Below are positions 21,762-46,780 of a stretch of 64,000 nt of DNA, in pieces (positions within the stretch are counted from its first letter, which is position 1; every line of letters begins with the position of its first letter). A program made the position numbers and the translations under genes. The notes beneath the pieces are model-generated. The model saw only the letters and a program-made list of their open reading frames with translations, was not told where the DNA came from and did no database searches. The DNA lies in IMG/VR virus record IMGVR_UViG_3300030060_008074, positions 1 through 64,000 of that record; one strand, written 5' to 3'. The DNA comes from a virus.

Positions 21762-22958
21762 TTAATTAGTTATTAAATTATTTTCATATGTTTCCATATT
21801 TTTTATACTTACCTCTAAGGTACCTAAATTAAATGTACCTATATCTCCACTATCTGATATTATTTCAGATAACTTTTGAATGTAACCGAATTCGCTGTTT
21901 GCAAACCTACTTCCATCAACTCTTATCTCTACATTATTATTTACCTGGCTATGTATTCCATAGACTCTTTCTTTCATATCGAATTTTGTATTTTTTTGTT
22001 CACTTTCTATATAATAATCATAATCCATATCAACAAATATTTGGTCACACCACGGTTCTAGCGCATGTAATATTTGTGAAGTACAATTTTTAACTACAAT
22101 TCCAACTCCATATTTCTTAGGAACTATTGGTTTCAAAAACTTATCGTGTTTTACAAAGTGGCCCCATTTACGAATAAAGTTTCTAGAAGCCTTTTCATTT
22201 TGCGCCAACCATTCATCTGTTTCTCTGTTTTTCATAAATACTTTACCATCTGGATTTCTAACAGCTCCACCCGCAAATCTACTGCCTCTACACGTCATGT
22301 GGTATACACAACCTCCCCATGTTTGAACAAACTTAATACCATTCAAATGAAACCTATTAAATATATCTGAATCTTCTTTTGATTGAGGAGCATATAATTC
22401 ATCATGGCCTCCTATCTCCTGAAAATCCTTTTTATAGAATGCCCATGGAGCAAATATACCTTCAGTTATTTTAGTTAATTGATTTAATCGTATATCCTTA
22501 AACCAATCTAATAATTGTTGTTCTTTGAACTCTTCAGGCTCAATACCAAAATCCATTAACATCTTTTCTGGACCTGGTGGATGCAAAGGTGGTTCAATTC
22601 TTGTTAAAGAAACAATAGTTTTATCTTTCATTTTATGTTCTATCTGATCTATTGCTCCTGGCATTAAATACATATCAGCATGATATATCATACAAACATC
22701 GTGTTTTGCAACTTCATTTACTAGTTTATCATAAAGAATAGTATGGCCTAATCTTTGTTCACTAAAATTACATATTGCGTCAAAGTTTTCATCCTTTTCC
22801 ATCATCTCAAGACACCATTCCCATGTACCATCAGTAGAAGCATCTGAAGCAACGCATATCTGTACTTCATGGTCTCCTTGATTTTTTCTAATTGAATCAT
22901 AAGACCATTTTAGATACTTAAGATTATTTCTACTAGGTTGTATTAAACTAATTTTCAT
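21762..22958 (-). CDS. Glycosyltransferase family 2
   Basis: ISLIQPSRN, DASTDGT, HADM, IGGHD...EDSD. Confidence 0.85.
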   Translation of the reverse strand: MKISLIQPSRNNLKYLKWSYDSIRKNQGDHEVQICVASDASTDGTWEWCLEMMEKDENFDAICNFSEQRLGHTILYDKLVNEVAKHDVCMIYHADMYLMPGAIDQIEHKMKDKTIVSLTRIEPPLHPPGPEKMLMDFGIEPEEFKEQQLLDWFKDIRLNQLTKITEGIFAPWAFYKKDFQEIGGHDELYAPQSKEDSDIFNRFHLNGIKFVQTWGGCVYHMTCRGSRFAGGAVRNPDGKVFMKNRETDEWLAQNEKASRNFIRKWGHFVKHDKFLKPIVPKKYGVGIVVKNCTSQILHALEPWCDQIFVDMDYDYYIESEQKNTKFDMKERVYGIHSQVNNNVEIRVDGSRFANSEFGYIQKLSEIISDSGDIGTFNLGTLEVSIKNMETYENNLITN

Positions 22959-28800: not shown

Positions 28801-29568
28801 TTATTTTACAGTTGCTACTCCTGGTTTTTGAACCACTATTGTAGTGCACTCTTGAGCAAACCCTATCGCCTTTTCTATATCGTTACTTTTTATGTATTCA
28901 TAAACCAATCCTGCTAAAAAAGTATCTCCTGCTCCTGACACATCTTTAACAGGTACTTCCTTAGTTGGAAATATTTTTTCGTTATATATACAACCATTTT
29001 TACCTTTAGTTATTATCAACTTTTCCTTTAACTTTGGATATTTAGGTATTCTTTCAAAATTCTTTTCGTGCTCTGAATTATTGATTTTAATAAAATCTAT
29101 ATCATTACACCATTCACCTAAAAACTTTTTAGTATCTAGAAATACTGGACAACTAGCCATTTCTGCTATTTGTTCTATATCGTATGTTTGAAGAAACCCT
29201 TTACAATAATCTGATACAATTATTGCGTCGTATTTATCAGCAGTTTTCATTATGTGATGAGGCATTGCTTTTCCTGTACTTGCTAGTGATTGTATTGGTT
29301 TACACCTATCATTTTCATCAACACGCAATACCATTTGATTATATCTTTCATCAACATATCTAATCTTTTTAATAGGGTCTTCGTTTGTAATTAAATCAAC
29401 TTCAGCTCCCAAGGCTCTTAAATTTGACGCTACATTTCCTGCCATTCCTGGATTACCTACTTCTTTATTAGGCTTTATTACTGGAACAGGGGCCTCTGGA
29501 GCTATTCTACTTATATCGCCATAGATAAAAATATCCTCACAACTATCTCCAATAACTAATATTTTCAT
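28801..29568 (-). CDS. Heptose-7-phosphate kinase (RfaE/HldE domain I, PfkB family)
   Basis: LVIGD..D..IYG...RIAPEAPVPV, SDYCKG, DVSGAGDTF. Confidence 0.85.
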   Translation of the reverse strand: MKILVIGDSCEDIFIYGDISRIAPEAPVPVIKPNKEVGNPGMAGNVASNLRALGAEVDLITNEDPIKKIRYVDERYNQMVLRVDENDRCKPIQSLASTGKAMPHHIMKTADKYDAIIVSDYCKGFLQTYDIEQIAEMASCPVFLDTKKFLGEWCNDIDFIKINNSEHEKNFERIPKYPKLKEKLIITKGKNGCIYNEKIFPTKEVPVKDVSGAGDTFLAGLVYEYIKSNDIEKAIGFAQECTTIVVQKPGVATVK

Positions 29569-30098: not shown

Positions 30099-30480
30099 CT
30101 AAAGTATCTCCCTTCCATATTCTATATGAATCTTCATCAAAGTGTTGAGTAGAAACTTCAAACACCGTTGCATCTGTTATTGCTTCTAATTGGTGAGGTT
30201 GACCTGGAGGTACTCTCACAGCATCGCCTGGATATAAAGTTTGACTGTTAGTTTCAGCTTTTTCTGTATCAATCCATGTGTATAGGAATTTACCCTCCTG
30301 TACATACCATGTTTCATCTTTAATCATATGATAGTGCATTGAAAATTTACGTCCTTTCTTAAATACTAATAATTTACCGCAATACAGTTCGTTGTTTTCA
30401 AATATAATTTCATGTCCCCAACCTTTTTCTACTCTAGATTCTGAACATTCTTTTGCATTAAATATTATCGGTTTTTCCAT
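30091..30480 (-). CDS. Cupin (mannose-6-phosphate isomerase / D-lyxose isomerase-like)
   Basis: VEKGWGHE, SMHYHMIKDETWYV, PGQPH, EVST. Confidence 0.8.
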   Translation of the reverse strand: MEKPIIFNAKECSESRVEKGWGHEIIFENNELYCGKLLVFKKGRKFSMHYHMIKDETWYVQEGKFLYTWIDTEKAETNSQTLYPGDAVRVPPGQPHQLEAITDATVFEVSTQHFDEDSYRIWKGDTLDG

Positions 30481-30866
30481 TCTAATATCTCAGTTGTAGA
30501 ATATCTATCTATCCTATTAAAAAATTTAAGTTCTTTGGTGTATTCTTCTCCAATAACTGTTTTACCTTTCCAATCTGAACCTATTACCATTATATCTGGA
30601 GAAATCTTTTTTATTAGTTGCTCTAGCTCATGGGTTGAATCAAAAACATGGGTACTGTCTACATATGATATTGAGTTAACCATGAATCTTCTATCATCTT
30701 CACTAAAAACAGGTCTAGTTGGTCCTTTATCTTTATTTACTTTGTGATCTGAATCTATGCCTACATGAAGTTTACCACCTAAAGATTTAGCATACCTAAA
30801 TAATTCAACGTGTCCTCTATGAAGTACATCAAAACATCCATTTGTCCAAATTATTTTTTGTTCCAT
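30465..30866 (-). CDS. Sugar-phosphate adenylyl/cytidylyltransferase (RfaE/HldE domain II-like)
   Basis: TNGCFDVLHRGH (HxGH), KGPTRP, IGSDW, YSTT. Confidence 0.85.
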   Translation of the reverse strand: MEQKIIWTNGCFDVLHRGHVELFRYAKSLGGKLHVGIDSDHKVNKDKGPTRPVFSEDDRRFMVNSISYVDSTHVFDSTHELEQLIKKISPDIMVIGSDWKGKTVIGEEYTKELKFFNRIDRYSTTEILEWKNR

Positions 30867-31243
30867 GATATTTCCCAATCCTTAAAATCAGCTGCTAAAC
30901 AATCTATTTTGTAATCTTTTCTACCGCCTACCTTTTCTTGAATCATGTTTTTAGCAGTGTTTCTTATTCCATTTAATCCGTGAGTAAGTTCTAAATTATT
31001 TCCGTCCTTAATACCTTTTCTATAATTAGATTCATTGTGCCAAATATGTAAGTTCATCTGTGACAAAACAACTACTGCTCTAATTAGTTCAGCATCTACT
31101 CCTTCTAAATTTATATCGTGTAATATGTCCTGTATTTCTTTTGCATATTCTTCTTTATGCTCAGGAATAAATACCTCTTTTAGTTGGGCAATAGATAATC
31201 TATCTATAAGCTCAGATAGTGTTGGTAAATATTTTCTTTCCAT
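30851..31243 (-). CDS. Helical hypothetical protein (DUF4254-like; start revised)
   Basis: TLSELIDRLSIAQLK and NLHIWHNE..R; TAATG overlap with the upstream stop. Confidence 0.5.
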   Translation of the reverse strand: MERKYLPTLSELIDRLSIAQLKEVFIPEHKEEYAKEIQDILHDINLEGVDAELIRAVVVLSQMNLHIWHNESNYRKGIKDGNNLELTHGLNGIRNTAKNMIQEKVGGRKDYKIDCLAADFKDWEISWNKK

Positions 31244-36123: not shown

Positions 36124-37067
36124 TTTTTTTCTCCTTCGTAATAACTTATTGTCTTTGGTCCTCTATAAATATCTTGGCCAAATATCTTTTTTTGAACTGA
36201 CTCATTATATTCATGTTTATGTTGGCAATTTCTAGAAAAGGCCTTTCTTATTTTATCTTCTCCATTATGGGCTCCCCATGGCCAATTCCATTTTTTTGCG
36301 AATCTTTTTTTACCTTCTTCAAAACCTATTCCAGACATACTACTATATCCAGTAAATTTTCTCTTTCCACCTATGTCATGGATATATGTCAAATTTGGAA
36401 AACAAACATTATATATTCCATTCAACATGAATTGGTGGCTAATATCATCGTCAGCATGATTAAGGTGGTAGCCTTTATCTATTTTTATATGCTCTTTCAT
36501 TAGTTTTATATTGTATCCTTTTGCCCAATCTAGTGGAGACTCTACTACAAAATAATCTTTTGACTTGTACTCTTCATATTTTGGAAGGTTAACGTACCAG
36601 CCACCGTGCTTTGATATAATATTTTTCTCTAAGCATCCTCTTCCAAATCTACCGTTTTTATCAGAGTCTGCAAAGCCAAAGCTTCCAACCTTTTCCAATA
36701 AAGTGTCTTCATGCTTAGATAATATATCATCTAGTTTATTCCAAAAGTCTTTAGTCTTAGGAAATGCATCATCGTGTACTCTAATAATCCAGTCAAAGTC
36801 GTGGTTATTTTTTTCTAGCCAATCTATTGCTTCAAACATCAGCTCATGGTGTGTTAGTCCTGAAACACTTTCTTCGTTCATCCAATGAATTCCATATTTA
36901 GCACAAACCTCTTTAGCCTTGTCTAACTGTTTTTTGTCAGAACCTACGTCATGGTTAATCATTAAAACATCCTTAAAAGAAACAGAAGAATTCTTAAATA
37001 CCATGTTTTCAAATAACTGATAATGATTTTTTGTTTGAAAATATATACAATACTTTCTATTATTCAT
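36120..37067 (-). CDS. Putative GT2-like glycosyltransferase
   Basis: D.GS, HDDA (DxD-like), ADDDI; context. Confidence 0.55.
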   Translation of the reverse strand: MNNRKYCIYFQTKNHYQLFENMVFKNSSVSFKDVLMINHDVGSDKKQLDKAKEVCAKYGIHWMNEESVSGLTHHELMFEAIDWLEKNNHDFDWIIRVHDDAFPKTKDFWNKLDDILSKHEDTLLEKVGSFGFADSDKNGRFGRGCLEKNIISKHGGWYVNLPKYEEYKSKDYFVVESPLDWAKGYNIKLMKEHIKIDKGYHLNHADDDISHQFMLNGIYNVCFPNLTYIHDIGGKRKFTGYSSMSGIGFEEGKKRFAKKWNWPWGAHNGEDKIRKAFSRNCQHKHEYNESVQKKIFGQDIYRGPKTISYYEGEKN

Positions 37068-37360
37068 TATATTTCCTCTATCCTCTTAGTTTTATCGCAA
37101 ATGAGTAAATCATAATCTGGCTTTTCACCTACGCTCAATTCATGGTATTGACATCCCCATTCATCTAATTGATTTGCAGTTGTCTCTAACCAATCCAATC
37201 CTGTTACTGCACCTCTTGCTGTCCAATACTTAATATAATGTCCTTTATCATATAGTTTATTTATCTTAGCTATATTTTCCATGTTAGGAATGGCATCTGG
37301 ATAATGCCTTTCTCCTTCATAAAAACAAATTGTTTCGTCTATGTCTACGTATATCTTCAT
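37067..37360 (-). CDS. Minimal HAD phosphatase (capsule-biosynthesis phosphatase type)
   Basis: VDIDETI, WTARG, KP, ICDK. Confidence 0.8.
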   Translation of the reverse strand: MKIYVDIDETICFYEGERHYPDAIPNMENIAKINKLYDKGHYIKYWTARGAVTGLDWLETTANQLDEWGCQYHELSVGEKPDYDLLICDKTKRIEEI

Positions 37361-37367
37361 ATTATTT

Positions 37368-37398
37368 AATATAACAAATTTATTTCAATCTGTAAAAC
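37368..37398 (-). promoter_or_regulatory. Class A promoter motif
   Basis: Minus strand GTTTTACAGATTGAAATAAATTTGTTATATT. Confidence 0.55.
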
Positions 37399-38032
37399 TT
37401 TTTATGTAATTTTTTAATCTTTTTAAGTCTTCTTTATCATCTATATCAACAGAATCCTCTGAAGCCATTTCAACAAAACCAACTTTTCCAGAATAAAGAG
37501 AATTAGTTTTGATAAATGATTCTGTTTTTGTTATATAGAAAGCTCCATTTTCCTTATACCATGGTAACATATCTTGAGTCCTAGGCCGAGAACCCGGTAT
37601 AAAATTAACAGGTTCTCCGTAACTATCCCAATAAAATCCTTTTTCATTTGTGACAGATATTACAGAATCAAACCTATTCATCATTTCTATACCTTCACTA
37701 ATGTGTTTATTCGTTACCAAAGGAGTAGTTGCCTGCATTACAACTATTATTTCAGTTTTTTCTTCATCTAAAAAATGTTTTACGGCCTCTTCTGTTTTTG
37801 ATGTATCTGTGCTTATGTTTTCGGGTCTTTCAACAACCATTGCACCATATTCCTTTGCTACAGCTGATATTTTTTTACTATCTGTACTGACATACACCTC
37901 ATCAGTTAATTTTTTAGCAGTTTCTATTGAATAGGCCAATAAAGGTTTTCCATTCACATCGATAATATTTTTGTTTGGTATTCTTTTTGAACCACCCCTT
38001 GCAGGTATCAATATCTTAAAATTGCATTTCAT
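37385..38032 (-). CDS. neuA: Acylneuraminate (CMP-sialic acid) cytidylyltransferase (start revised)
   Basis: IPARGGSKRIPNKN, VSTD, QATTP, RPRTQD, ENGAFY, SVDID; GGAGG SD before ATG 38032. Confidence 0.9.
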   Translation of the reverse strand: MKCNFKILIPARGGSKRIPNKNIIDVNGKPLLAYSIETAKKLTDEVYVSTDSKKISAVAKEYGAMVVERPENISTDTSKTEEAVKHFLDEEKTEIIVVMQATTPLVTNKHISEGIEMMNRFDSVISVTNEKGFYWDSYGEPVNFIPGSRPRTQDMLPWYKENGAFYITKTESFIKTNSLYSGKVGFVEMASEDSVDIDDKEDLKRLKNYIKSFTD

Positions 38033-38948
38033 ATTTACCTCCAAATATTTCTGTAGTATCATATCTTTTTATTTGATATGGTTTTTCAAAAATGTCTCTA
38101 ATATTATTTAATCCTCTTTCCATAGTAAATCCTGAAGATAGATTTAGCTCTCTGCATGATTCAAATAATTCTTCACTTATAGCAGTTTGTTCTCCAAACG
38201 GATAACTTATAGAAGAAATTTGTTTTCCAGTTATATTATTTATGTAGTTAATTGAATCAGATATATTTTCCTTTATTTGTTTTTTATCAAGTGTACCAAA
38301 AGAAACATGATTTTTCCCATGAGTTCCTAGGCAGCCAGCTCTAGATAATTCTATTATATTTTCTTTGGACATAAATAATTCTTCACATACATCTGATTCA
38401 CTCTTTTCAGAATATTTATTAAAAGCTTCATCAATGTCTTGATAATTAGCAACAAAATTTAATAAGTATTTTATTTTTGAAGTTTCCAAATTATCAAAAG
38501 GATATTGCGACTTTACATGTTCTAAGTCTAGTGATTCTATTTCTTTTTGATATTTTTCTCTAAAGTATTCAAATATTAAATTATCACCTATATTACTTCT
38601 AAGATAGTGTATCTTATGTGTGTGAGGAATTTTTTTGTATTCTATAGTATCTGATATAGCATAAAATACGGCTGGAATACCTTTTTCTTTCAGTATACTA
38701 TACCCTGTTTCAAAAGACTCTAATAATCCATCATCAAATGTTATTAAGCAAGACTTGCTTGGCATTGAATCATTATCTAAGGTTGAAATTGCTGTGTCTA
38801 GTTCATCTATGGATATAAAATCATAACCGTTAGCGTTTATCAAATCTAACTGTTCTGTGAAGTGCTCTGGTGTGATAGGATATATCCCTTTACTAGGCAT
38901 TATTTTTCTTATGTAGTGATAATTTACAACTAATAAAACTTTATCCAT
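38016..38948 (-). CDS. Polysaccharide deacetylase (NodB/CE4)
   Basis: NYHY, ITFDDG, GTHGKNH, SYPFG. Confidence 0.85.
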   Translation of the reverse strand: MDKVLLVVNYHYIRKIMPSKGIYPITPEHFTEQLDLINANGYDFISIDELDTAISTLDNDSMPSKSCLITFDDGLLESFETGYSILKEKGIPAVFYAISDTIEYKKIPHTHKIHYLRSNIGDNLIFEYFREKYQKEIESLDLEHVKSQYPFDNLETSKIKYLLNFVANYQDIDEAFNKYSEKSESDVCEELFMSKENIIELSRAGCLGTHGKNHVSFGTLDKKQIKENISDSINYINNITGKQISSISYPFGEQTAISEELFESCRELNLSSGFTMERGLNNIRDIFEKPYQIKRYDTTEIFGGKYEMQF

Positions 38949-39654
38949 AGTACTTTTCCAAAACTTTTCTCAAAGATTCTTCATTAAAATCTTTTTTCTT
39001 ATAGTAAAACTTTTGTTTAATTTTATCCTGTTTTTTTGGTTGTATACTATTTTTACTATATGCTTCTAATACTCCCGGGATATTTTTTACAGATTTCATA
39101 AATAGTTTATTTGTTGTATCGTAGTAATTATCTCCATCTTCCATATCTATTTTAACAGTTTCTAATATATCTCCTCCATCAACAATCGTGTTTGCTAAAT
39201 GTATCGTTGTTCCTAAATTTTTAAGGTCATCGTTAAAAAATGTCCAAAAAAGAGTTGCTGCTCCTCTGTATCTAGGGCTCAAACCTAAATGTAAATTTAT
39301 TATCCTGTCTTTGAACGCATTACACCATTCGTCTTTTAATAATCCTGCTCCATACAATAATATATAATCAGGATTTAATTTTTTTGCCCAATCTATATTT
39401 TCTATGTCATTTACTCTGCCTGCAGGAATGCACCTTACATCACAATTAGGATAGCCGTTATATTTATTTAGATATTTTTCTTCGTACATTTTCATCTTAG
39501 AAAAATGTTCATTTACAAAACTATTTTTTCTTTGAGAATTAAAGTAGTCTGAATGGGGTTCTGTAATTATTCCTGCTACATCTAAGGTTTCGCTTAGATA
39601 ATTACAGTAATACCTATGTCTTATTTGACTTCCTGTTAAAATAACTACTTTCAT
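38941..39654 (-). CDS. Formyltransferase-family protein
   Basis: INLHLGLSPRYRG...GTTIH...VDGGDI. Confidence 0.85.
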   Translation of the reverse strand: MKVVILTGSQIRHRYYCNYLSETLDVAGIITEPHSDYFNSQRKNSFVNEHFSKMKMYEEKYLNKYNGYPNCDVRCIPAGRVNDIENIDWAKKLNPDYILLYGAGLLKDEWCNAFKDRIINLHLGLSPRYRGAATLFWTFFNDDLKNLGTTIHLANTIVDGGDILETVKIDMEDGDNYYDTTNKLFMKSVKNIPGVLEAYSKNSIQPKKQDKIKQKFYYKKKDFNEESLRKVLEKYYG

Positions 39655-40385
39655 GTTCTTATACTCAAATAGCCTTCAGACTCTAAATTTTTTGTAGCTT
39701 CTAGTTCTCCCTTAAAGCTATGAATCAATCCTCCGCATGAAAGTGGAGCCATTGTATAGTATTTAGAAGATGGAAACTCTGCATCCTGTCTTCCACCATA
39801 AAAACTATATCCATATATATTAACCTTTTTGAATAGCATTACAGCTAAAATTATGGCTATAAAACCAGTAGTTGATTCTTTACCGTTTGTTAAGGCATTA
39901 GAATATGTTTCTAGTTCTCTATCTATATAGCTTATTTTATTATTTCCATTCATATGTAAATCTAATATTCCAAATACCCTATCTAAATTTGAAGGGTAAG
40001 GTCTAACGATAAAATGTTCATTCTTTAATCTTGGAAACCATGTTGCTGAAGGAAGTCCTAATGTTCCACCTGTTTCAAAACTTATGCTAGAAAAAGTTTT
40101 TCCAGATATTAACCGTAAATCTGTTCTACTTCCAACCCAATCTTCAAAACCTTCTATTCTAGCAGCGTTTGACCTTATTATGAAATCATGGCTGTCTATT
40201 TCTTTACCTAGTTTTTTATCTAGTATGTTTGGAGCACTACCAATAACTGCACATGATTTGTCAGAAAAATCAGAATCGAAACTGTTTATACCTGTAAAGT
40301 ATGATATTACTTCATCTTTTGAGTATTTGCCATTATATTTTTTTAAGGCTTCTGCTAATTCTGTATTTTTTACAAACGTATTCAT
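39651..40385 (-). CDS. GT29-family (animal-type) sialyltransferase
   Basis: Sialylmotif L (SCAVIGSAP.IL...LGKEIDSHDFIIRSNAA...GFEDWVGSRT), S (STTGFIAIILA....KVNIYGY), motif III-like YY, VS (HSFKGE). Confidence 0.85.
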   Translation of the reverse strand: MNTFVKNTELAEALKKYNGKYSKDEVISYFTGINSFDSDFSDKSCAVIGSAPNILDKKLGKEIDSHDFIIRSNAARIEGFEDWVGSRTDLRLISGKTFSSISFETGGTLGLPSATWFPRLKNEHFIVRPYPSNLDRVFGILDLHMNGNNKISYIDRELETYSNALTNGKESTTGFIAIILAVMLFKKVNIYGYSFYGGRQDAEFPSSKYYTMAPLSCGGLIHSFKGELEATKNLESEGYLSIRT

Positions 40386-40386
40386 A

Positions 40387-40980
40387 TTATTTATATGCAT
40401 TTACACACAATTGACCGTCTTGTTTGTGTGGGTCCATACTCTCTATTCCTGTTCTCTCAACTTTAGAAAAACCAACATGCTTTAATAAATTTTCTAACAT
40501 ATCATATGTCCAACCTGCCACGTGGCTTATAGAACCGTAAACATTTCCATTTTTATCTGTTAAGTAAGTTTCTGGTCTAGCAGCATTTGCTTCACTACCA
40601 CAAACCCCAGCCATTAACATTCCTCCTACACCCATTATTGGATATATTCCTCTATTTGCCATAGAACCCCAATGATTTTTACTCCTGCTCCACTGAGATG
40701 GGTCGTTATTGTTGTATGCCTCTATCATTTTTCCTAGGTCTGGACAAACAGTTCTAAATTTTCCACCTATTTCTAGCTTTCTATATATCTTATTTATCAC
40801 TAATTCTATATTGCAATACGGTATATGCTCTATTACGTGAGACCAATAAACATCCGTTAAGTATCCATCTGAGCAAGATATTTCATCAAAGACTATGTTT
40901 GCTCCTCCATTATTGTATCCAAATTCTGTCCATCCTGGAAGGTTTCTATTTCCGCCTATCTCTAGTTTCTTATTCAACAC
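40387..40980 (-). CDS. Class I SAM-dependent methyltransferase
   Basis: LEIGG, VYWSHVIEH, L..GG.FR..CPD; GTG start. Confidence 0.75.
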   Translation of the reverse strand: MLNKKLEIGGNRNLPGWTEFGYNNGGANIVFDEISCSDGYLTDVYWSHVIEHIPYCNIELVINKIYRKLEIGGKFRTVCPDLGKMIEAYNNNDPSQWSRSKNHWGSMANRGIYPIMGVGGMLMAGVCGSEANAARPETYLTDKNGNVYGSISHVAGWTYDMLENLLKHVGFSKVERTGIESMDPHKQDGQLCVNAYK

Positions 40981-41828
40981 TAATCTCCTTTATATTTTTT
41001 TCTAGCTCCCTCTTCACATGGTAAAACATATTTTTGTGTTATCCCAAGAGCTTCTTCTAGATTTCTAACAGACTCACAAACTCTTTTCATTCCACCAGGT
41101 TCTAAAGATGCTGCCTGATCAGAGCCTTTCATAGTTCTATCAGTTGTAAAGTGTCTTTCTAACCACGTTGCTCCTAAAGCCACTGCTCCAGCTTCAACTC
41201 CTCCATTTGCTGACCTAAAGTGTCCAGAGAATCCAATTTTTGCCCAAGGAAATTCTTCTTTATATGTTTTAAGTACATTTAGATTAACATCCTTTTCATC
41301 ACATGGGTATGTAGAAGTACATTGCATAACCACAACATCATTTGTGTGAGATTTTAATATATTCATAGTTTCTTCGACTTCTTCCATAATACACATACCA
41401 GTTGAAACAAGTATTGGCTTATTAAAAGTCATAACATGTTTTATTAAGTCGTGCTTAGACGTTTCAGCTGAGCCAAACTTATATATTTCTTGCCCTAATT
41501 CTTCCATTTCATTTGCACTATTTATATCAAAAACAGTATTAAATGCTTTCAACCCTAAACTATTAGCATAGTCAAATAATTCTTTCCATTGTTCTTTACT
41601 AAATTCTAGAGCCTCTTTGTGTTCTCCATATGTTTTTCCAAAACTGTTTGGATTATCGTATGGACGATTATATTGTTCTTCAGTCAAACATTCTGAAGGC
41701 GTTCTTTTTTGGCCTTTAATATAATCTACGCCACATTTTGCCGCTGCCTTAATAATTTTTTTGGCCAACTTCATATCACCACAGTGATTGATTCCCATTT
41801 CTGCAATTATTTTAGTATTAAATTTCAT
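40980..41828 (-). CDS. neuB: N-acetylneuraminate(-9-phosphate) synthase family, lacking the C-terminal SAF domain
   Basis: IIAEMGINHCGD, K.QKR, GKTYGEHK..LEFS, STGM, QCTSTYP, GFSGH, ERHFT.D....GSDQAASLEP. Confidence 0.9.
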   Translation of the reverse strand: MKFNTKIIAEMGINHCGDMKLAKKIIKAAAKCGVDYIKGQKRTPSECLTEEQYNRPYDNPNSFGKTYGEHKEALEFSKEQWKELFDYANSLGLKAFNTVFDINSANEMEELGQEIYKFGSAETSKHDLIKHVMTFNKPILVSTGMCIMEEVEETMNILKSHTNDVVVMQCTSTYPCDEKDVNLNVLKTYKEEFPWAKIGFSGHFRSANGGVEAGAVALGATWLERHFTTDRTMKGSDQAASLEPGGMKRVCESVRNLEEALGITQKYVLPCEEGARKKYKGD

Positions 41829-42495
41829 CAAAATTCTCCTTAAACCTTTTCGTTATTAGATGCGGTCTAGTTATGGCTGTTCCTATAACTATATTACTGG
41901 CACCGTTTTGTTTTGCAAAATATACATGTTCCTTTGTTGAATACCTACCTTCAGCTATTATTGGTAATATAGATTTTTCTGACAAAAGTTTTAGAAAATC
42001 AAAGTCAGGTTCTTCAGTAGGTTCGCAATATTCAGTATATCCACTAAGTGTTGTAGAAAGCATTTTACATCCACATTTTTCAGCCATATGTATGTGTTTA
42101 TTCATAAGGCCAGGATAAGCCATATCTCCTATTACAGGCACACTAGTCAGTTCACAAATATCTCTTAAATTTTTCCAACCATCTTTTACGGTTAATGCAT
42201 CCTTTCTACCAGTTGCATCAGCTGCTATGTAATCTGCACCTGCGGCTTCTATTAGTTTAGCCTCCAAGATAGAAGGAGTTATCCACACTTTACCTGTAGT
42301 GTATTTCTTTTTTATTAGTCCTATTACAGGTATATCTACCTCTTTCTTAACTGCTGATATATTATCTACACCTTCTATTCTTACTGCAACTGCTCCTCCT
42401 CTCTCAGCCTCTTTTGCTAGAGCAACAATAGACTGAATGTTATTAAGATAACTACCTTCTTCTGCTTGACAGGATACTATTATTCCTTTATCCAT
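41818..42495 (-). CDS. nanE: N-acetylmannosamine-6-phosphate 2-epimerase
   Basis: IVSCQA, PVIGLIKK, ITP, DAT.R, TTLSGYT, IIAEGR, GTAITRP. Confidence 0.9.
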   Translation of the reverse strand: MDKGIIVSCQAEEGSYLNNIQSIVALAKEAERGGAVAVRIEGVDNISAVKKEVDIPVIGLIKKKYTTGKVWITPSILEAKLIEAAGADYIAADATGRKDALTVKDGWKNLRDICELTSVPVIGDMAYPGLMNKHIHMAEKCGCKMLSTTLSGYTEYCEPTEEPDFDFLKLLSEKSILPIIAEGRYSTKEHVYFAKQNGASNIVIGTAITRPHLITKRFKENFDEI

Positions 42496-43507
42496 TTCTT
42501 TCCTTTCTCTGTCTTTTTACTGCCTCTGAAAAAGCATAATCCTTATATTCAGGCTTTCTAGCATCTTCCCATGTAAAAGATTTCCAACTAGGATTAAAAA
42601 GATTATAGCAGTTCGCCTCTGACATTTGATGAGCGGTTAGATACCAATCACTAGCCTCTCTTCTACCTTGCATGGATATATCCATATCTTCTCCTTGTAC
42701 ATACATTCTCTTTTTAGGGTGTTTTCTATTATGAACAAGTAGTATATTTTTTATTACGTATTGAGGTATATTTCCTAAAACTCTATTGGTCATGTGTTGA
42801 AAAGCAGTATCTTCATGTACAAAGAATACAGATTTTGGAATGTTTACGCCCGCCTTTATTACTTCTGAAGATATAACCAATCCGCATCCGTTAAATTTAT
42901 GTGGAGAAACTATCCTAACGTCTAAATCTTCTACACCTTCATTTATATTATCCATCTCTTGCTTATTCATAGTATATTTCAAGCTCCACCATTTATCACT
43001 GTCATCTGTGTGGTCTACAAAAGGTTTATCAGTAAAGTCTGGGTGCTCTAATACTTTCCAACTATCATCCCACATTTTGCATGTACCAAAAAATGATAGG
43101 TATTTTGGATTTTTATCCTTTATACCTTGGTGTAATATATCTAATACTTGAAAGGTTTGTCTAGGTATTAAAGAGTCAGATTCTCCCCACATTAAAACGT
43201 CTACCTTATTACAGTATCTAGTGTTAAATCTTCTCCTATAATCTGCTATCGTTACTAACTTACAACTGATTTTAATTTTAATATCCTCACCTAAAATAGC
43301 TATAGCACTCTTTATTTTACGTTCACAGTATTTCATTTTCTCTGCAGATACAGGTTTTTCTAGCTCTTCATTTGTAGTTACGTGAAAATCAACAATGACT
43401 TCTCCATCATAAGATTTTATAGCATCCAATAGAGATATAACATATTCTTCTATTATTTCTGCTTCATACCACTGTACTAAACATCCTATTGCAAATTTTG
43501 TTTTCAT
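42488..43507 (-). CDS. Putative GT-A glycosyltransferase
   Basis: WGESD (DxD-like), HEDT, LLVH; context. Confidence 0.5.
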   Translation of the reverse strand: MKTKFAIGCLVQWYEAEIIEEYVISLLDAIKSYDGEVIVDFHVTTNEELEKPVSAEKMKYCERKIKSAIAILGEDIKIKISCKLVTIADYRRRFNTRYCNKVDVLMWGESDSLIPRQTFQVLDILHQGIKDKNPKYLSFFGTCKMWDDSWKVLEHPDFTDKPFVDHTDDSDKWWSLKYTMNKQEMDNINEGVEDLDVRIVSPHKFNGCGLVISSEVIKAGVNIPKSVFFVHEDTAFQHMTNRVLGNIPQYVIKNILLVHNRKHPKKRMYVQGEDMDISMQGRREASDWYLTAHQMSEANCYNLFNPSWKSFTWEDARKPEYKDYAFSEAVKRQRKERNG

Positions 43508-44283
43508 AATTCTATCCTAGGTATACCAGTATAACCTGGATTTATTTTAGACGTCATTTCTAATTCTATTCCTTTATCCTTCAACCAATAAAATAGGTTT
43601 TTGGTAGAATCTGCTACTAGTAATATTTCTTCTTTTGTCATTTCAAACTTTCCAAACTGAACCCTAGAAGGGTCATAACTATGTTCTTGCCATACACATC
43701 TAGTTTTATCAAACTCTTCCATGTTTGGGTCTCCTATATCCCAGCCAACCAATACAAACTTTTTAACTCCCATCAAGATACCGGTAGGTATACACATCTC
43801 ATACATAGTTCCAGGACCCCAAGGCCTTTCAAATTGAGAGTCAAACAATAACGAATCAAAGTCTCCTTTAGCACAAACTGAAGAATCAAATTTTGGAAAG
43901 CTATCATTTCTAAAATTAGGAATCATAAAATCACACCTAATATTATTTTGCATGATTATATGTGGGTGTTGCTGGTCCCATATAATAAATGGAACGATTG
44001 TATGAAGGTTGTCTCCATAATCATAATTTGTGAAATTAACAAAGTTATTAAAATGAAAATCTACTGTATCCTTCAGTACATCAAAAGACTGTTTTATTGA
44101 AAAAACTAATTTATCAGAAAGTACATCGTTCAAATATTCAGGAGTATAATCTTTGAGAGATGGACCAGCCGCTACTATGTACGCAGTTTCTCCTTCAAAG
44201 GCTCCTCTTAAAACTTCAAGTCTTTCTTGACTAGTTTCAAGCATCAACATTTTTTTTCTTAATTCTAATGTTTTGCTTTTCAT
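43504..44283 (-). CDS. DUF115/MptE-like (Maf-type) putative nonulosonate transferase
   Basis: AYIVAAGPSL...GT......MGVKKFVLVGWD; fold family related to GT29/Maf. Confidence 0.65.
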   Translation of the reverse strand: MKSKTLELRKKMLMLETSQERLEVLRGAFEGETAYIVAAGPSLKDYTPEYLNDVLSDKLVFSIKQSFDVLKDTVDFHFNNFVNFTNYDYGDNLHTIVPFIIWDQQHPHIIMQNNIRCDFMIPNFRNDSFPKFDSSVCAKGDFDSLLFDSQFERPWGPGTMYEMCIPTGILMGVKKFVLVGWDIGDPNMEEFDKTRCVWQEHSYDPSRVQFGKFEMTKEEILLVADSTKNLFYWLKDKGIELEMTSKINPGYTGIPRIEL

Positions 44284-44285
44284 AA

Positions 44286-45323
44286 TTATCTCGTCTGTAA
44301 ATAAGGGTCTATTCCATGTTTTAAGCAGTATTCATCACTTGTTAAATTGCTGTCTACTAAACGTTCAACAAGTCTCAGCGCATTATCCCAGTTTCTAAAT
44401 TCAACCGCTTTATCATCAATATATGCCACCGCTCTAGGCTTTTCAGAAGTTACCTTTGATACAAATTTTGCCATATCGTATTTCTTTAACCATTCCCAAA
44501 CAAGTTCAGTACCTGTTTTTCCATTAACTAATCCTCTATCTGGTTTTGCCTTTGCAGTAAATATTATTACAGTATATTTTTTAGATAATTCTTCCAATGC
44601 CTCATACGAGCCTTCTATAGGTTCGTCATATATAGTACCATCATAAAATCCTTTACTATTTTTATGTATAACTCCATCAAAGTCTACTCCTATATTTGTT
44701 AACTCGTCTGGGTAAGAATTTGCTCTAATCTTATCTCCTTTCCAGTTTAATCTAGCTAATTCTTCAGGAGTATTTTTGCCTATAGGAGGGCATTCATTAC
44801 CTGAGCCGTGAGTAAGCTGGTATTGTAATAGTAAACTTAAGCATTCAGCTGTATGATAATAATCTACACCTAATATTACTTGTGTTAAACCTTTTATAGA
44901 TTCAGCTATAGGCTTAGCTGTTATTAAACAAGTTTCCATTCCATTATCAGATGCCCACTGTAAAGCTTTGTTTACGTCTTTTGATTTACCTGATGAAGAT
45001 ATTCCATATACCAAAGACTTTTTCATTTGTGATTTAGTACGGGTTGAGGTTCTTTGTTGTAGCCATGCAACCATCCATTGGTCAAAGTTTGTATCATTTA
45101 TTAGTGAAGTTGCAACAACACAACTACCTGGACACATTGCGTTCTTTGTACCATTTGAAAGTCTTGTCATATCAACAGCAGTATGGTCAGCTACTCCCAT
45201 ATTACCACCATGACCAAGTACATAAATGTCATTGCACTTATTATATTTTTTTTGTAATTCTTGCCATTCTGGTCCAGAAACTATTTCTGTAAATCTATGG
45301 CCAATGTTTTCAATATTCATCAT
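44286..45323 (-). CDS. Fusion of SIS (GmhA-like phosphosugar isomerase) and HAD phosphatase
   Basis: N-terminal G.GG...ADH, ND, GISSSG.S.DV; C-terminal VDFDGVIH, FTA, KP, YIDDKA. Confidence 0.8.
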   Translation of the reverse strand: MMNIENIGHRFTEIVSGPEWQELQKKYNKCNDIYVLGHGGNMGVADHTAVDMTRLSNGTKNAMCPGSCVVATSLINDTNFDQWMVAWLQQRTSTRTKSQMKKSLVYGISSSGKSKDVNKALQWASDNGMETCLITAKPIAESIKGLTQVILGVDYYHTAECLSLLLQYQLTHGSGNECPPIGKNTPEELARLNWKGDKIRANSYPDELTNIGVDFDGVIHKNSKGFYDGTIYDEPIEGSYEALEELSKKYTVIIFTAKAKPDRGLVNGKTGTELVWEWLKKYDMAKFVSKVTSEKPRAVAYIDDKAVEFRNWDNALRLVERLVDSNLTSDEYCLKHGIDPYLQTR

Positions 45324-45348
45324 AATTTTATTCTCCTATTTATTATAT

Positions 45349-45379
45349 AATATAATAAAATTTTTTGACATGGTAAATT
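45349..45379 (-). promoter_or_regulatory. Class A promoter motif
   Basis: Minus strand AATTTACCATGTCAAAAAATTTTATTATATT then AGGAG SD. Confidence 0.6.
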
Positions 45380-46055
45380 ATTTGTCTAATTTTTTTATTG
45401 CATCTATTAACATTGTTGTGTCCATTCCTAGAGCATAGAATCCATATCCATCTAAGTCATGAGATTTTATATCTTCTGTTTTTACTAAATGTACTCCTCT
45501 AAGCTCTTTTGGTATCATGTTAATTTTTTCTAAATACTCTTTGTATTCTTTATTATCCCATTCTCCAACACAACCTAAGCTAGCAGATAAATCGTATGGT
45601 CCAACTAAGTAATAATCAAATGGCATATTATACAATTCCTCTAAGTTATCAACAGCCTCTTTTGTTTCTATCTGTGCTATAACTATTGGCATAATATTTT
45701 GCAGTTTGTCTTTACCCCAAAAATTTTCTCTAACTAATCCTTGGCCTCTTTTACCTCCGTGTTTAGGGTATTTACAGTAATCAATGATTTCCTGTGCCTG
45801 ATTTTCATTTTCAACTGTAGAAAATATTATTCCTGTTGCACCTGCGTCTAAACACATTCTAACCAGGGCCTTATCTAAATGGGAAACTCTAACAAAGCAA
45901 TTTTTTCTTCTAAGAGTTATTATCTGTATTGAAGTATAAAGGTTTTCATTATTAAAGGCTCCATGTTCTGTATCTAACACGATGCCGTCATAGTCTGAAT
46001 CTGCATATATTTCAGATATTATTGTAGATGATATTTGTTGCCAAAGTAGTTTCAT
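45378..46055 (-). CDS. HpcH/HpaI-family pyruvate aldolase
   Basis: LDTEHG, VRV, LDAGA.G, YP..G.RG, QIET..AV.N, GPYDLSASLG. Confidence 0.9.
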   Translation of the reverse strand: MKLLWQQISSTIISEIYADSDYDGIVLDTEHGAFNNENLYTSIQIITLRRKNCFVRVSHLDKALVRMCLDAGATGIIFSTVENENQAQEIIDYCKYPKHGGKRGQGLVRENFWGKDKLQNIMPIVIAQIETKEAVDNLEELYNMPFDYYLVGPYDLSASLGCVGEWDNKEYKEYLEKINMIPKELRGVHLVKTEDIKSHDLDGYGFYALGMDTTMLIDAIKKLDK

Positions 46056-46780
46056 TATTTTTTCTCAACTAAACTTAGTCTATCTTCTTCTGTGTCTACA
46101 CTTTTACTATCGTGATCGGTATATTTCATAGAAACTTCTATATCATTTTCTAATAGCCTTAATAATCCTATGCCTTCCATATTTTCTAAATATGTTGGTT
46201 CTAGTTTTACGTATCGTTGAAGGCTATCATAGTCAAAAGAATAAACACCTAATTGTTTATACACTTTTTCTTTCAAATTTTTTCTACGAGTTTTTTCATC
46301 TCTAAACGGTATAGAATATCTAGAAAAATAAATTGCTTTTCCTGAATTACTGATTACTACCTTTACACAATTTGGGTCAAATATTTCTTCTATATCTTTT
46401 ACTTCTGTATAAAAATTTGTTATTTCGTTTGATAAATCAACGTTCAACGTATCAACATTAAAAAATGGCTCATCTCCTTGAATAATAATATACCTATCTG
46501 CATTTTCAGCCCTGTGCTTTAATATTTTAGCTGTTTCAGCGGCTCTATCGATACAATCAGGATGATTTGGATCTGTGTAAACATAATCTATATTATACTT
46601 CTCGCATACATCTGCTATTCTCTTATCGTCTAAGGCAACATATACCTTTTTCCAATTATTCCACTTTTTAACTGAATTATACACGTGCCATATCATGGGT
46701 TTACCATTTATATCACATAAAGGTTTTCCAGGCAATCTAGATGAGCCGTATCTGGCAGGTATTATTCCTATATATTCCAT
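46055..46780 (-). CDS. kdsB: CMP-Kdo synthetase-like cytidylyltransferase
   Basis: IIPARYGSSRLPGKPL, QGDEP, VKVV, YFSR..IP, LE..E...LLR.LEN, VDT.ED. Confidence 0.9.
   Translation of the reverse strand: MEYIGIIPARYGSSRLPGKPLCDINGKPMIWHVYNSVKKWNNWKKVYVALDDKRIADVCEKYNIDYVYTDPNHPDCIDRAAETAKILKHRAENADRYIIIQGDEPFFNVDTLNVDLSNEITNFYTEVKDIEEIFDPNCVKVVISNSGKAIYFSRYSIPFRDEKTRRKNLKEKVYKQLGVYSFDYDSLQRYVKLEPTYLENMEGIGLLRLLENDIEVSMKYTDHDSKSVDTEEDRLSLVEKK

What the first reader, a model, noticed from the sequence alone, without database searches (positions are those of the whole stretch)
37067..44283. Apparently complete animal-type sialylation pathway in a phage
Seen in sequence: nanE, neuB-family synthase, methyltransferase, a GT29 with sialylmotifs L, S, III-like and VS, formyltransferase, deacetylase, neuA and a HAD phosphatase form one run, and no neuC is present in the window. 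The synthase carries RPY...SFGKTYGEHK..LEFS..Q and the cytidylyltransferase carries QATTP/RPRTQD/ENGAFY, which from memory resemble vertebrate NANS and CMAS more than E. coli NeuB/NeuA. Established: animals go ManNAc-6-P to Neu5Ac-9-P (NANS), dephosphorylate (HAD), activate with CMP (CMAS) and transfer with GT29; bacteria typically use NeuC/NeuB and GT38/42/52/80. Inference: the normally catabolic NanE runs in reverse (GlcNAc-6-P to ManNAc-6-P) to feed a phosphorylated route, and the phage sialylates its virion or another target. The formyl-, methyl- and deacetyl-enzymes might make a modified nonulosonic acid.
Basis: partly seen in the sequence, partly recalled or inferred. Interest (0 to 1): 0.9.

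Follow-up and report, generated by a model that had tools for sequence, protein, structure and literature searches.

The report
Phage sialic-acid-type sugar pathway with GT29
A very large uncultured marine phage carries one tight gene run that should build a sialic-acid-type sugar from a common cell metabolite, activate it and attach it with a small soluble relative of animal sialyltransferases. The parts come from a bacterial and phage gene pool, not from animals.

Summary
On the minus strand, 44283-37067 encodes a Maf/MptE-like protein, a phage-only 339-aa protein, NanE, a 283-aa NeuB without the SAF domain, a class I methyltransferase, a 249-aa soluble GT29, a formyltransferase, a CE4 deacetylase, a CMP-nonulosonate synthetase and a 97-aa HAD phosphatase. 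No NeuC lies on the 78-kb contig.

The reading "animal-type" is only partly supported.
- For a phosphorylated, NanE-fed route: NanE-linked NeuBs form one clade. The mini-HAD sits beside NeuB on about 25 viral contigs. A planctomycete has a NeuA-NanE fusion next to such a NeuB.
- Against an animal origin: GT29 occurs in 41 of 301 genomes sampled from one bacterial phylum, often 1-4 kb from NeuA-NeuB. The phage NeuB keeps the bacterial catalytic Glu. GNE, the SAF domain, the CMAS C-terminal domain and the GT29 membrane anchor are all absent.

The sugar may be N-formylated or O-methylated. The target is unknown, and all 38 island proteins look soluble.

This scan has already reported phage GT29+NeuB+NeuA modules on other genomes. 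The NanE entry step and the formyl/deacetyl pair are what is new here. I found no paper describing phage GT29.

The parts
43504..44283 (-). MptE/DUF115 (Maf-like) protein, 259 aa; a candidate second ulosonic-acid transferase
   Evidence: PF01973 E 2e-7, 31.4 bits, below the 34.6 cut-off. Homologues at 28-42% identity travel with the 339-aa protein and the o21762 GT2 on many viral contigs. No PDB sequence match.
42488..43507 (-). 339-aa protein of a phage-only family; possibly a GT-A-like glycosyltransferase
   Evidence: No Pfam or NCBIfam hit. The nearest ESM Atlas clusters are 100% viral (0.99); weak GT2-like neighbours are a lead only. Homologues at 28-62% identity on viral contigs L103-L130, L134, L140.
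41818..42495 (-). NanE, ManNAc-6-P/GlcNAc-6-P 2-epimerase; proposed entry step run in the biosynthetic direction
   Evidence: PF04131 E 3.7e-45; NF002231 202.8 bits against a 189 cut-off. Aligns with C. perfringens NanE 4utt at E 1e-34, with the GxIK, DAT.R, TTLSGYT, EGR and AITRP blocks kept. Linked to the same NeuB clade in 8 loci.
40980..41831 (-). NeuB-family nonulosonate synthase, 283 aa, TTG start, no SAF domain
   Evidence: PF03102 E 1.8e-70; NeuB_NnaB 235 bits against PseI 181, both below their equivalog cut-offs. Its loop NSFGKTYGEHKEALEFS is shared with clades A and B. It has GSAE at the N. meningitidis E134 position.
40387..40980 (-). Class I SAM-dependent methyltransferase-like protein, 197 aa
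   Evidence: No Pfam hit. ESM Atlas score 0.96 with 203 shared features to viral Methyltransf_11 clusters. Homologues at about 25% identity lie between NeuB and NeuA on L095, L096 and L099.
39651..40400 (-). Soluble mini-GT29 sialyltransferase-like protein, 249 aa
   Evidence: PF00777 88.6 bits. L-motif matches pig ST3Gal-I at E 7e-11. Y214, H227 and E232 are conserved in relatives. The AF2 model (pLDDT 83) best matches ST6GalNAc2, ST3Gal1, ST8Sia3 and ST6Gal1 (E 1e-11 to 1e-7, TM about 0.6); GT42 CstII matches more weakly. No N-terminal hydrophobic anchor.
38941..39654 (-). N-formyltransferase, 237 aa
   Evidence: PF00551 E 3.8e-14. Best solved relatives are the LgrA formylation domain and PseJ, a formyltransferase of a pseudaminic-acid pathway. 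The NLH...DGGD catalytic pattern aligns. It is paired with the deacetylase between NeuB and NeuA on L015/L097 as well.
38016..38948 (-). CE4-type (polysaccharide deacetylase family) de-N-acetylase, 310 aa
   Evidence: PF01522 E 1.1e-15. The TFDDG and H-x3-H (THGKNH) metal motifs are visible in the sequence. PgaB-type relatives in the PDB.
37385..38062 (-). CMP-nonulosonate synthetase (NeuA/CMAS catalytic domain only), up to 225 aa; the true start may lie downstream of 38062
   Evidence: PF02348 E 1.3e-31; PseF model 144 bits, below its cut-off. PDB matches: mouse CMAS 1qwj at 7e-28 and Vibrio 6ifd at 3e-26. Alignments begin at residue 13-17.
37067..37360 (-). Capless mini-HAD sugar-phosphate phosphatase, 97 aa; first gene after a promoter-like element
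   Evidence: D6, D8, T10, T47, K80 and D84 are invariant and D89 nearly invariant in 16 viral homologues. AF2 pLDDT 91.4. Foldseek best match is 9iqw, phage D-arabinose-1,5-diphosphate phosphatase AfhF (35% identity); Kdn-9-P and Kdo-8-P phosphatases match more weakly. It lies within about 3 kb of NeuB (directly upstream of it in the second viral NeuB clade) on about 25 viral contigs.

Best explanation
The run is a phage-encoded operon that makes, activates, modifies and transfers a sialic-acid-type nine-carbon acid sugar in the host cytoplasm.

Proposed steps, all inferred from family membership and conserved gene order:
1. NanE converts host GlcNAc-6-P to ManNAc-6-P.
2. The SAF-less NeuB condenses ManNAc-6-P with PEP to give the 9-phosphate.
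3. The 97-aa HAD phosphatase removes the phosphate.
4. NeuA makes the CMP-sugar.
5. The soluble mini-GT29 transfers the sugar to an acceptor. The Maf-like protein may also do so.

The CE4 deacetylase plus formyltransferase pair probably swaps N-acetyl for N-formyl, and the methyltransferase probably adds an O-methyl, so the product is likely a modified neuraminic acid.

The acceptor is unknown. None of the 38 island proteins has a membrane segment, and no lipid-carrier enzymes were seen. A soluble target such as phage structural proteins is therefore my first guess.

The logic parallels the animal NANS-NANP-CMAS-GT29 route, but the genes belong to a bacterial and phage pool.
For: -
- The genes are tightly packed on one strand with overlapping stops and starts.
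- A shared promoter-like element precedes 45323 and 37360.
- The order NanE-NeuB-(methyltransferase)-(HAD)-NeuA recurs on viral contigs L095, L096 and L098-L100. NanE-NeuB-formyltransferase-deacetylase-NeuA recurs on L015/L097.
- NanE-linked NeuBs form one clade (support 95, one change on the tree).
- A Thermoguttaceae genome encodes a 478-aa NeuA-NanE fusion next to such a NeuB.
- The mini-HAD is 36-75% identical and lies close to NeuB on about 25 viral contigs and on the 484-kb phage LR756508.1.
- Mini-GT29 lies 1-4 kb from NeuA-NeuB in at least 17 Neomarinimicrobiota, Lentisphaeria and unclassified-bacterium loci. It also lies near NeuA, NeuB or the HAD on viral contigs L134, L135, L138 and L140.
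- No NeuC-type epimerase is on the contig.
- No membrane segment in any island protein, apart from the GT29 core helix.
- Phage nature: IMG/VR record; PolB, GroEL, RNR, DnaB, UvsX, SSB and ThyX match PHROGs.
Against: - No biochemistry exists for any member of these clades.
- The phage NeuB keeps Glu at the N. meningitidis E134 position. PMC8208679 reports Asp there in eukaryotic and archaeal enzymes and suggests it relates to the phosphorylated substrate.
- The resemblance of the GKTYGEHK loop to human NANS rests on memory. I could not fetch an animal NANS sequence to test it.
- The HAD's closest solved relative acts on a pentose bisphosphate, not on a nonulosonate phosphate. Its substrate is therefore open, and it could dephosphorylate ManNAc-6-P before NeuB.
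- The HAD gene starts the next putative transcription unit rather than sitting inside the NanE-NeuA run.
- L015/L097 has the cassette without a detectable HAD homologue in the fetched flanks.
- A second CMP-synthetase (KdsB) sits 6 kb away, so the GT29 donor is not certain.
- CE4 enzymes usually act on polymers, so the deacetyl/formyl swap on a monomer is a guess.
Confidence: 0.55

Rival explanations
1. The same genes work in a bacterial-style order. NanE makes ManNAc-6-P, the mini-HAD removes the phosphate to give free ManNAc, and NeuB then condenses ManNAc with PEP as in E. coli or Neisseria. There is no 9-phosphate intermediate. NanE plus HAD simply replace NeuC.
For: The phage NeuB keeps the bacterial-type Glu at the E134 position (PMC8208679). 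Its best solved relatives are N. meningitidis NeuB and PseI. The HAD's closest solved relative is a small sugar-phosphate phosphatase, not a Kdn-9-P or Kdo-8-P phosphatase. Gene order cannot tell the two step orders apart.
Against: In the second viral NeuB clade the HAD sits directly upstream of NeuB without NanE. That fits a synthase-then-phosphatase pair acting on a host hexose-6-phosphate. From my own knowledge, the characterised synthase/HAD pairs (animal NANS/NANP, B. thetaiotaomicron Kdn-9-P synthase/phosphatase) work in that order. The SAF domain is missing here; PMC8208679 describes its Arg314 as essential for the bacterial enzyme.
Confidence: 0.22
2. The synthase does not make Neu5Ac. 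It makes Kdn from mannose-6-P, or a legionaminic or pseudaminic-type acid from a diamino-deoxy hexose supplied by other island enzymes (4,6-dehydratases, DegT aminotransferase, formyltransferase). NanE would then serve another sugar.
For: NeuB and NeuA score below the equivalog cut-offs for NeuB_NnaB, PseI and PseF. The formyltransferase resembles PseJ of a pseudaminic-acid pathway. The island holds LegB/GMD-like dehydratases and a DegT-like protein. Earlier reports of this scan on other phages favoured Kdn (not tested here).
Against: NanE is intact and is linked to this NeuB clade in 8 loci, including a NeuA-NanE fusion. The L015/L097 cassette has the formyltransferase and deacetylase but no aminotransferase. 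NeuB scores higher on the NeuB model (235 bits) than on PseI (181 bits).
Confidence: 0.13
3. The mini-GT29 is not a nonulosonate transferase. It uses the CMP-Kdo-like donor made by the neighbouring KdsB and HpcH-aldolase genes, and the Maf-like protein transfers the nine-carbon sugar.
For: KdsB (234 bits, above its cut-off) and a class II aldolase lie at 45378-46780. A Maf-like gene is in the same run. A preprint reports Maf enzymes transferring Neu5Ac and Kdo (10.1101/2020.06.03.131540, listed). An earlier scan report describes a phage Kdo-type module ending in GT29 (not tested here).
Against: GT29 sits between NeuB and NeuA here. It lies next to NeuA-NeuB in at least 17 bacterial loci and several viral ones.
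Confidence: 0.1

Closest known systems
Animal sialylation route (GNE, NANS, NANP, CMAS, Golgi GT29 sialyltransferases)
   Same: The likely logic is the same: a phosphorylated ManNAc precursor, a NeuB-family synthase, a HAD phosphatase, a CMP-synthetase whose best solved match is mouse CMAS, and a GT29-fold transferase with sialylmotifs L, S, III and VS.
   Different: Entry is by NanE rather than GNE. The synthase lacks the SAF/AFP domain and keeps Glu where eukaryotes have Asp. The phosphatase is a 97-aa capless HAD closest to a phage pentose-bisphosphate phosphatase. NeuA lacks the CMAS C-terminal domain. The GT29 is soluble, 249 aa, with no anchor or stem and no S-motif cysteine. Formyl-, deacetyl- and methyl-enzymes are added.
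Bacterial GT29-like sialyltransferases (Petit et al. 2018, Sci Rep 8:2946, PMC5811610)
   Same: A prokaryote-side branch of GT29 with recognisable sialylmotifs and no reported biochemistry.
   Different: That paper lists proteobacterial and archaeal sequences and does not mention viruses or phages. Here the enzyme is phage-borne and only 22-29% identical to the Neomarinimicrobiota and Lentisphaeria GT29s found next to NeuA-NeuB. Its close relatives (50-62% identity) are five unnamed metagenome proteins.
Bacteroides thetaiotaomicron Kdn pathway (Kdn-9-P synthase, Kdn-9-P phosphatase, CMP-Kdn synthetase). The pathway is cited from my own knowledge; the phosphatase structures 3e81 and 4hgo appear.
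   Same: A bacterial precedent for a phosphorylated synthase step followed by a capless HAD phosphatase and CMP activation.
   Different: The substrate there is mannose-6-P, with no NanE and no GT29. Its phosphatase is a 164-aa tetrameric HAD that matches the phage HAD only weakly (E about 0.03, TM about 0.49).
Phage GT29 + NeuB + NeuA modules reported earlier in this scan on other genomes (e1-5374200, e1-5363713, e1-5697301 and others)
   Same: A soluble mini-GT29 with its own NeuB, NeuA and (in some) HAD genes inside a phage sugar island; the target is unknown.
   Different: In their summaries, three of those reports favour Kdn and others leave the sugar open; none mentions NanE. This window adds NanE, which points to an N-acylated sugar, and a conserved deacetylase-formyltransferase pair.

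Membership tests
GT29 (CAZy GT29 / Pfam PF00777) | Match to the family profile above the curated cut-off | tested here: met
   88.6 bits against a cut-off of 23, in two stretches covering the L and S-VS regions.
GT29 (CAZy GT29 / Pfam PF00777) | Sialylmotifs L, S, III and VS, including the VS His and Glu | tested here: met
   CAVIGS...GKEIDSHDFIIRSN (L), ESTTGF...IYGY (S), KYY (III) and HSFKGE (VS). In 30 relatives E232 is invariant and Y214 and H227 are nearly invariant.
GT29 (CAZy GT29 / Pfam PF00777) | GT-A variant fold of solved sialyltransferases | tested here: met
   The best Foldseek hits are all GT29 (6apl, 2wnf, 5bo9, 4mps; E 1e-11 to 6e-9, TM 0.53-0.66). GT42 matches are weaker.
GT29 (CAZy GT29 / Pfam PF00777) | Animal-type architecture: N-terminal membrane anchor, stem region and the L-S disulfide | tested here: not met
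   No N-terminal hydrophobic segment. Only about 45 residues precede motif L. The L-motif Cys is present but there is no Cys in motif S.
GT29 (CAZy GT29 / Pfam PF00777) | Transfer from a CMP-nonulosonate donor | not testable with these tools
   Supported only by conserved position next to NeuA-NeuB.
Animal NANS-type (9-phosphate-forming) sialic acid synthase | NeuB catalytic domain | tested here: met
   PF03102 E 1.8e-70.
Animal NANS-type (9-phosphate-forming) sialic acid synthase | C-terminal SAF/antifreeze-like domain | tested here: not met
   The protein is 283 aa and the next gene starts at its stop codon. All clade A relatives are 278-291 aa without PF08666.
Animal NANS-type (9-phosphate-forming) sialic acid synthase | Asp in place of N. 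meningitidis Glu134 (reported for eukaryotes and archaea in PMC8208679) | tested here: not met
   GSAE aligns with the N. meningitidis GSGE. The Neomarinimicrobiota clade has ASAD.
Animal NANS-type (9-phosphate-forming) sialic acid synthase | NANS-like loop after strand 2 (RPY..S.GKTYGEHK..LEFS) | tested here: inconclusive
   The loop is present and invariant in clades A and B. Its identity with human NANS is from memory only: no animal sequence could be fetched, and a text search for the motif found nothing.
Animal NANS-type (9-phosphate-forming) sialic acid synthase | Uses ManNAc-6-P and releases Neu5Ac-9-P | not testable with these tools
   Indirect support only: NanE and HAD linkage.
HAD-superfamily phosphatase | Four catalytic motifs (DxDxT, S/T, K, D/DD) and the Rossmannoid fold | tested here: met
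   D6, D8, T10, T47, K80 and D84 invariant, D89 nearly invariant. pLDDT 91. HAD phosphatases dominate the fold hits.
NanE (ManNAc-6-P 2-epimerase) | Profile above cut-off and conserved catalytic and phosphate-binding blocks | tested here: met
   NF002231 202.8 bits against 189. Alignment to 4utt keeps the GxIK Lys, the EGR Glu and AITRP.
CMP-sialic acid synthetase (NeuA/CMAS) | CTP_transf_3 catalytic domain with sugar-binding C-terminal half | tested here: met
   PF02348 E 1.3e-31. Aligns over residues 17-210 with mouse CMAS and 13-221 with the Vibrio enzyme. Below the PseF equivalog cut-off, so sugar specificity is open.

The most novel reading that the evidence does not exclude
The phage makes a sialic acid not yet described in nature: an N-formyl, possibly O-methylated, neuraminic acid. 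It would do so through a NanE-fed, 9-phosphate route and attach the sugar to its own virion proteins in the cytoplasm with a soluble GT29. More broadly, NANS-like synthase plus GT29 would already exist as a linked package in marine bacteria and their phages. That would offer a source for the eukaryotic pathway other than the alphaproteobacterial one proposed in 2018.
Probability: 0.15. Interest if true: 0.85.

Novelty: new variant of a known kind. Interest (0 to 1): 0.6.

Why it matters
GT29 sialyltransferases and the 9-phosphate route are textbook animal traits. Here both sit in one phage operon, and I found the same pairing (GT29 next to NeuA-NeuB) widely in one marine bacterial phylum. That bears on where eukaryotic sialylation came from. 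It also offers small, soluble, anchor-free GT29 enzymes that should be easy to express and assay. If the sugar ends up on virions or on the host surface, it would be a new way for marine phages to change recognition, adsorption or grazing. The NanE entry step and the deacetylase-formyltransferase pair predict a modified sialic acid that can be looked for directly.

Tried and rejected
- Phage DNA search: a distant blastn of the 7.3-kb run found nothing in the phage collection.
- GT29 in cultured phages: tblastn of GT29 against 50,697 phage records hit only one uncultured 484-kb phage, so no cultured phage model is at hand.
- GT29 in IMG/VR: the first pattern scan found none and a broad alignment had no usable pattern. 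A narrower alignment found 17 loci.
- Taxa of the nearest GT29 clusters: the listing of cluster members returned no organism names.
The NeuB tree covers prokaryote and viral loci only, uses FastTree, and had the Marinimicrobia-type clade thinned; five rows were dropped for length.
- Text search for the NANS loop motif: nothing found.
- Pfam at E up to 10 gave nothing for the HAD, the methyltransferase or the 339-aa and 315-aa proteins.
- SIS+HAD protein at 44286-45323: I considered it as the sialate phosphatase and set that aside. With the PfkB kinase and the cytidylyltransferase-like gene it fits an ADP-heptose set better.
- A giant eukaryotic virus or a bacterial fragment: set aside because of the phage-type replication genes and the PHROG matches.

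Full report
**What the window is.** The window is the first 64 kb of a 78.2-kb IMG/VR virus record that CheckV rates at 19% complete, which implies a genome of roughly 400 kb. G+C is about 32% and nearly every gene is on the minus strand. The contig has a phage-type replication set. A family-B polymerase is 27% identical to T4-like cyanophage enzymes. There is a GroEL, a tRNA-Ala, and, on the last 14 kb, RNR, a DnaB helicase, an exonuclease, a UvsX-like recombinase, SSB and ThyX. I take it to be a very large tailed phage. The host is not established.

**Checking the observation.**
- NanE, 41818-42495, above the NCBIfam cut-off.
- A 283-aa NeuB, 40980-41831.
- GT29, 39651-40400, at 88.6 bits against a cut-off of 23.
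- A formyltransferase, 38941-39654.
- A CE4 deacetylase, 38016-38948.
- A CMP-nonulosonate synthetase, 37385-38062.

Two genes had no profile hit even at E 10.
- The 197-aa protein carries class I methyltransferase motifs and falls among viral Methyltransf_11 clusters in the ESM Atlas (0.96).
- The 97-aa protein begins MKIYVDIDET. In 16 viral homologues D6, D8, T10, T47, K80 and D84 are invariant and D89 nearly so, which are the four HAD motifs. AlphaFold gives pLDDT 91. The best fold match is a phage sugar-phosphate phosphatase, AfhF (9iqw, 35% identity, E 2.5e-7). T4 Pnkp phosphatase matches more weakly, and Kdn-9-P and Kdo-8-P phosphatases more weakly still.

No NeuC-type epimerase (PF02350) lies on the contig, but four fifths of the genome are missing.

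**The GT29.** The protein has sialylmotifs L, S, III and VS. In 30 relatives E232 is invariant and Y214 and H227 are nearly invariant. Its model (pLDDT 83) matches human ST6GalNAc2, pig ST3Gal-I, ST8Sia-III and ST6Gal-I ahead of bacterial GT42 enzymes. It is nevertheless a stripped-down form. It has 249 residues, no N-terminal anchor or stem, and no cysteine in motif S.

It is not an animal peculiarity. Petit et al. reported bacterial GT29 in 2018, with no mention of viruses (PMC5811610). A profile search found 4,697 clusters at E ≤ 0.001, and the best hits are mostly proteins of 190-260 aa. PF00777 was found in 41 of 301 genomes sampled from the phylum of a Marinimicrobia single-cell genome. 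In at least 17 Neomarinimicrobiota, Lentisphaeria and unclassified-bacterium loci the GT29 lies 1-4 kb from an adjacent NeuA-NeuB pair. Among 50,697 deposited phage records, only one uncultured 484-kb phage has it. That phage carries five paralogues around a NeuB and a homologue of the mini-HAD. IMG/VR holds further contigs with GT29 near NeuA, NeuB or the HAD.

**The synthase and its feeders.** The closest NeuB relatives are unnamed marine metagenome proteins of 277-284 aa at 50-88% identity, all without the SAF domain. Named and viral loci fall into three groups.
- Clade A holds the window, five viral contigs, the contig pair L015/L097 and a Thermoguttaceae MAG. It is SAF-less, has the loop NSFGKTYGEHK..LEF, mostly GSAE at the catalytic Glu position, and NanE next door.
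- Clade B is mainly Neomarinimicrobiota, with Flavobacteriaceae, Lentisphaeria and others. It has the SAF domain, the same loop, Asp at that position, and NeuA adjacent.
- Clade C is viral and SAF-less, with a different loop. The mini-HAD lies directly upstream, and the Maf-like, 339-aa and GT2 genes lie downstream.

On a FastTree tree the NanE-linked sequences are one clade (support 95, one change). In the Thermoguttaceae locus, NeuA and NanE are fused in one 478-aa ORF beside NeuB. NanE itself keeps the conserved blocks of the C. perfringens enzyme. These links make a biosynthetic role for NanE the simplest reading, and they point to an N-acylated nine-carbon sugar rather than Kdn.

**Which step loses the phosphate.** The repeated pairing of the mini-HAD with NeuB argues for a phosphatase step. 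Two orders are possible: synthase on ManNAc-6-P and then phosphatase, as in animals, or phosphatase first and then a classical NeuB reaction.
- For the first order: the HAD-NeuB pair in clade C occurs without NanE, the SAF domain is missing, and the loop (from memory only) matches human NANS.
- For the second order: the phage enzyme keeps Glu, where PMC8208679 reports Asp in eukaryotes and archaea and ties it to the phosphorylated substrate. The HAD's nearest solved relative also acts on a small sugar bisphosphate.

I put the animal-like order at roughly twice the odds of the other. Only an assay can settle it.

**Modifying enzymes.** The formyltransferase aligns best with the LgrA formylation domain and with PseJ, the formyltransferase of a pseudaminic-acid pathway. 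The Asn-His-Asp pattern is in place. The deacetylase shows the CE4 metal motifs TFDDG and H-x3-H. The two genes also sit together between NeuB and NeuA on L015/L097, which has no aminotransferase in the cassette. The economical reading is removal of an N-acetyl group followed by N-formylation, at an unknown stage. This is inference.

**Surroundings and target.** The run is part of a roughly 31-kb sugar island (20.6-51.9 kb). Its contents include:
- An ADP-heptose-like gene set.
- KdsB with a class II aldolase.
- UDP-galactopyranose mutase.
- 4,6-dehydratases.
- A split transketolase.
- A B12 radical SAM enzyme.
- Several GT2, GT4 and GT8 enzymes.

None of the 38 proteins has a membrane-type segment apart from the buried S-motif helix of GT29, and I saw no lipid-carrier priming enzyme. 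That favours a soluble acceptor such as phage structural proteins, but nothing here shows it. A shared promoter-like element precedes the genes starting at 45323 and 37360. The HAD therefore opens the next putative unit rather than closing this one.

**Comparison with what is known.** In working logic the module is closest to the animal NANS-NANP-CMAS-GT29 route and to the B. thetaiotaomicron Kdn route. By descent it belongs to a bacterial and phage pool. It fails the animal-specific tests I could run: there is no GNE, no SAF domain, Glu rather than Asp, no CMAS C-terminal domain and no GT29 anchor. Earlier reports of this scan describe phage GT29+NeuB+NeuA modules on other genomes and likewise found no paper on them. 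My searches found none either. What this window adds is the NanE entry step, the conserved mini-HAD family with a solved phage relative, and the deacetylase-formyltransferase pair.

**Verdict.** The module is a new variant of a known kind. Interest is 0.6: a glycobiologist would be surprised by a phage GT29 with its own donor pathway, and the enzymes are easy to test. But 'animal-type' overstates the kinship, and every functional step is still inferred.

Noticed in passing
L015:1-20837 and L097:1-20837: A contig binned in a 'Candidatus Pelagibacter sp. MED605' MAG is 99.99% identical over 20.8 kb to an IMG/VR viral contig. It carries GT2-NanE-NeuB-formyltransferase-deacetylase-SDR-NeuA. The same DNA is filed both as bacterium and as virus, so the 'Pelagibacter' label is doubtful.
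   Followed up: partly
L016:7086-8522: A Thermoguttaceae MAG encodes one 478-aa ORF that matches NeuA in its first half and NanE in its second, directly upstream of a SAF-less NeuB. This gene fusion ties NanE to CMP-sialate synthesis.
   Followed up: partly
L132:1-20200 (LR756508.1, 484-kb uncultured phage): Five GT29 paralogues surround a NeuB, a 4,6-dehydratase and a 48%-identical homologue of the 97-aa HAD.
   Followed up: partly
L024, L025, L044, L052, L055, L058, L061, L078 and others: The NeuBs of Neomarinimicrobiota, Lentisphaeria and still-unclassified bacteria have the SAF domain, the GKTYGEHK loop and Asp at the N. meningitidis E134 position. GT29 lies 1-4 kb from NeuA-NeuB in these loci. 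By the criteria of PMC8208679 these look more NANS-like than the phage enzyme.
   Followed up: partly
window 45378-46780: KdsB (CMP-Kdo synthetase, above its cut-off) is paired with an HpcH/HpaI class II aldolase, and no KdsA was seen in the window. This may be an aldolase route to a Kdo-like acid.
   Followed up: no
window 44286-45323, 28801-29568, 30465-30878: A SIS (GmhA-like) domain with a weak GmhB-like HAD hit, a PfkB kinase and a small cytidylyltransferase-like protein together resemble an ADP-heptose pathway.
   Followed up: no
window 20667-51891: None of the 38 predicted proteins of the sugar island has a membrane-type hydrophobic segment, apart from the internal S-motif helix of GT29. 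The whole island looks cytoplasmic.
   Followed up: partly
window 37361-37420 and 45324-45400 (minus strand): Both intergenic stretches share an AAAAAATTA...TTTAC(A/C)-N17-TATATT element just upstream of the start codons.
   Followed up: partly
window 42488-44283 and 21762-22958; L103-L113, L129, L130, L134, L140: The Maf-like protein, the 339-aa phage-only protein and the 398-aa GT2 recur together on many viral contigs a few kb from HAD-NeuB. They form a conserved trio of unknown role.
   Followed up: partly
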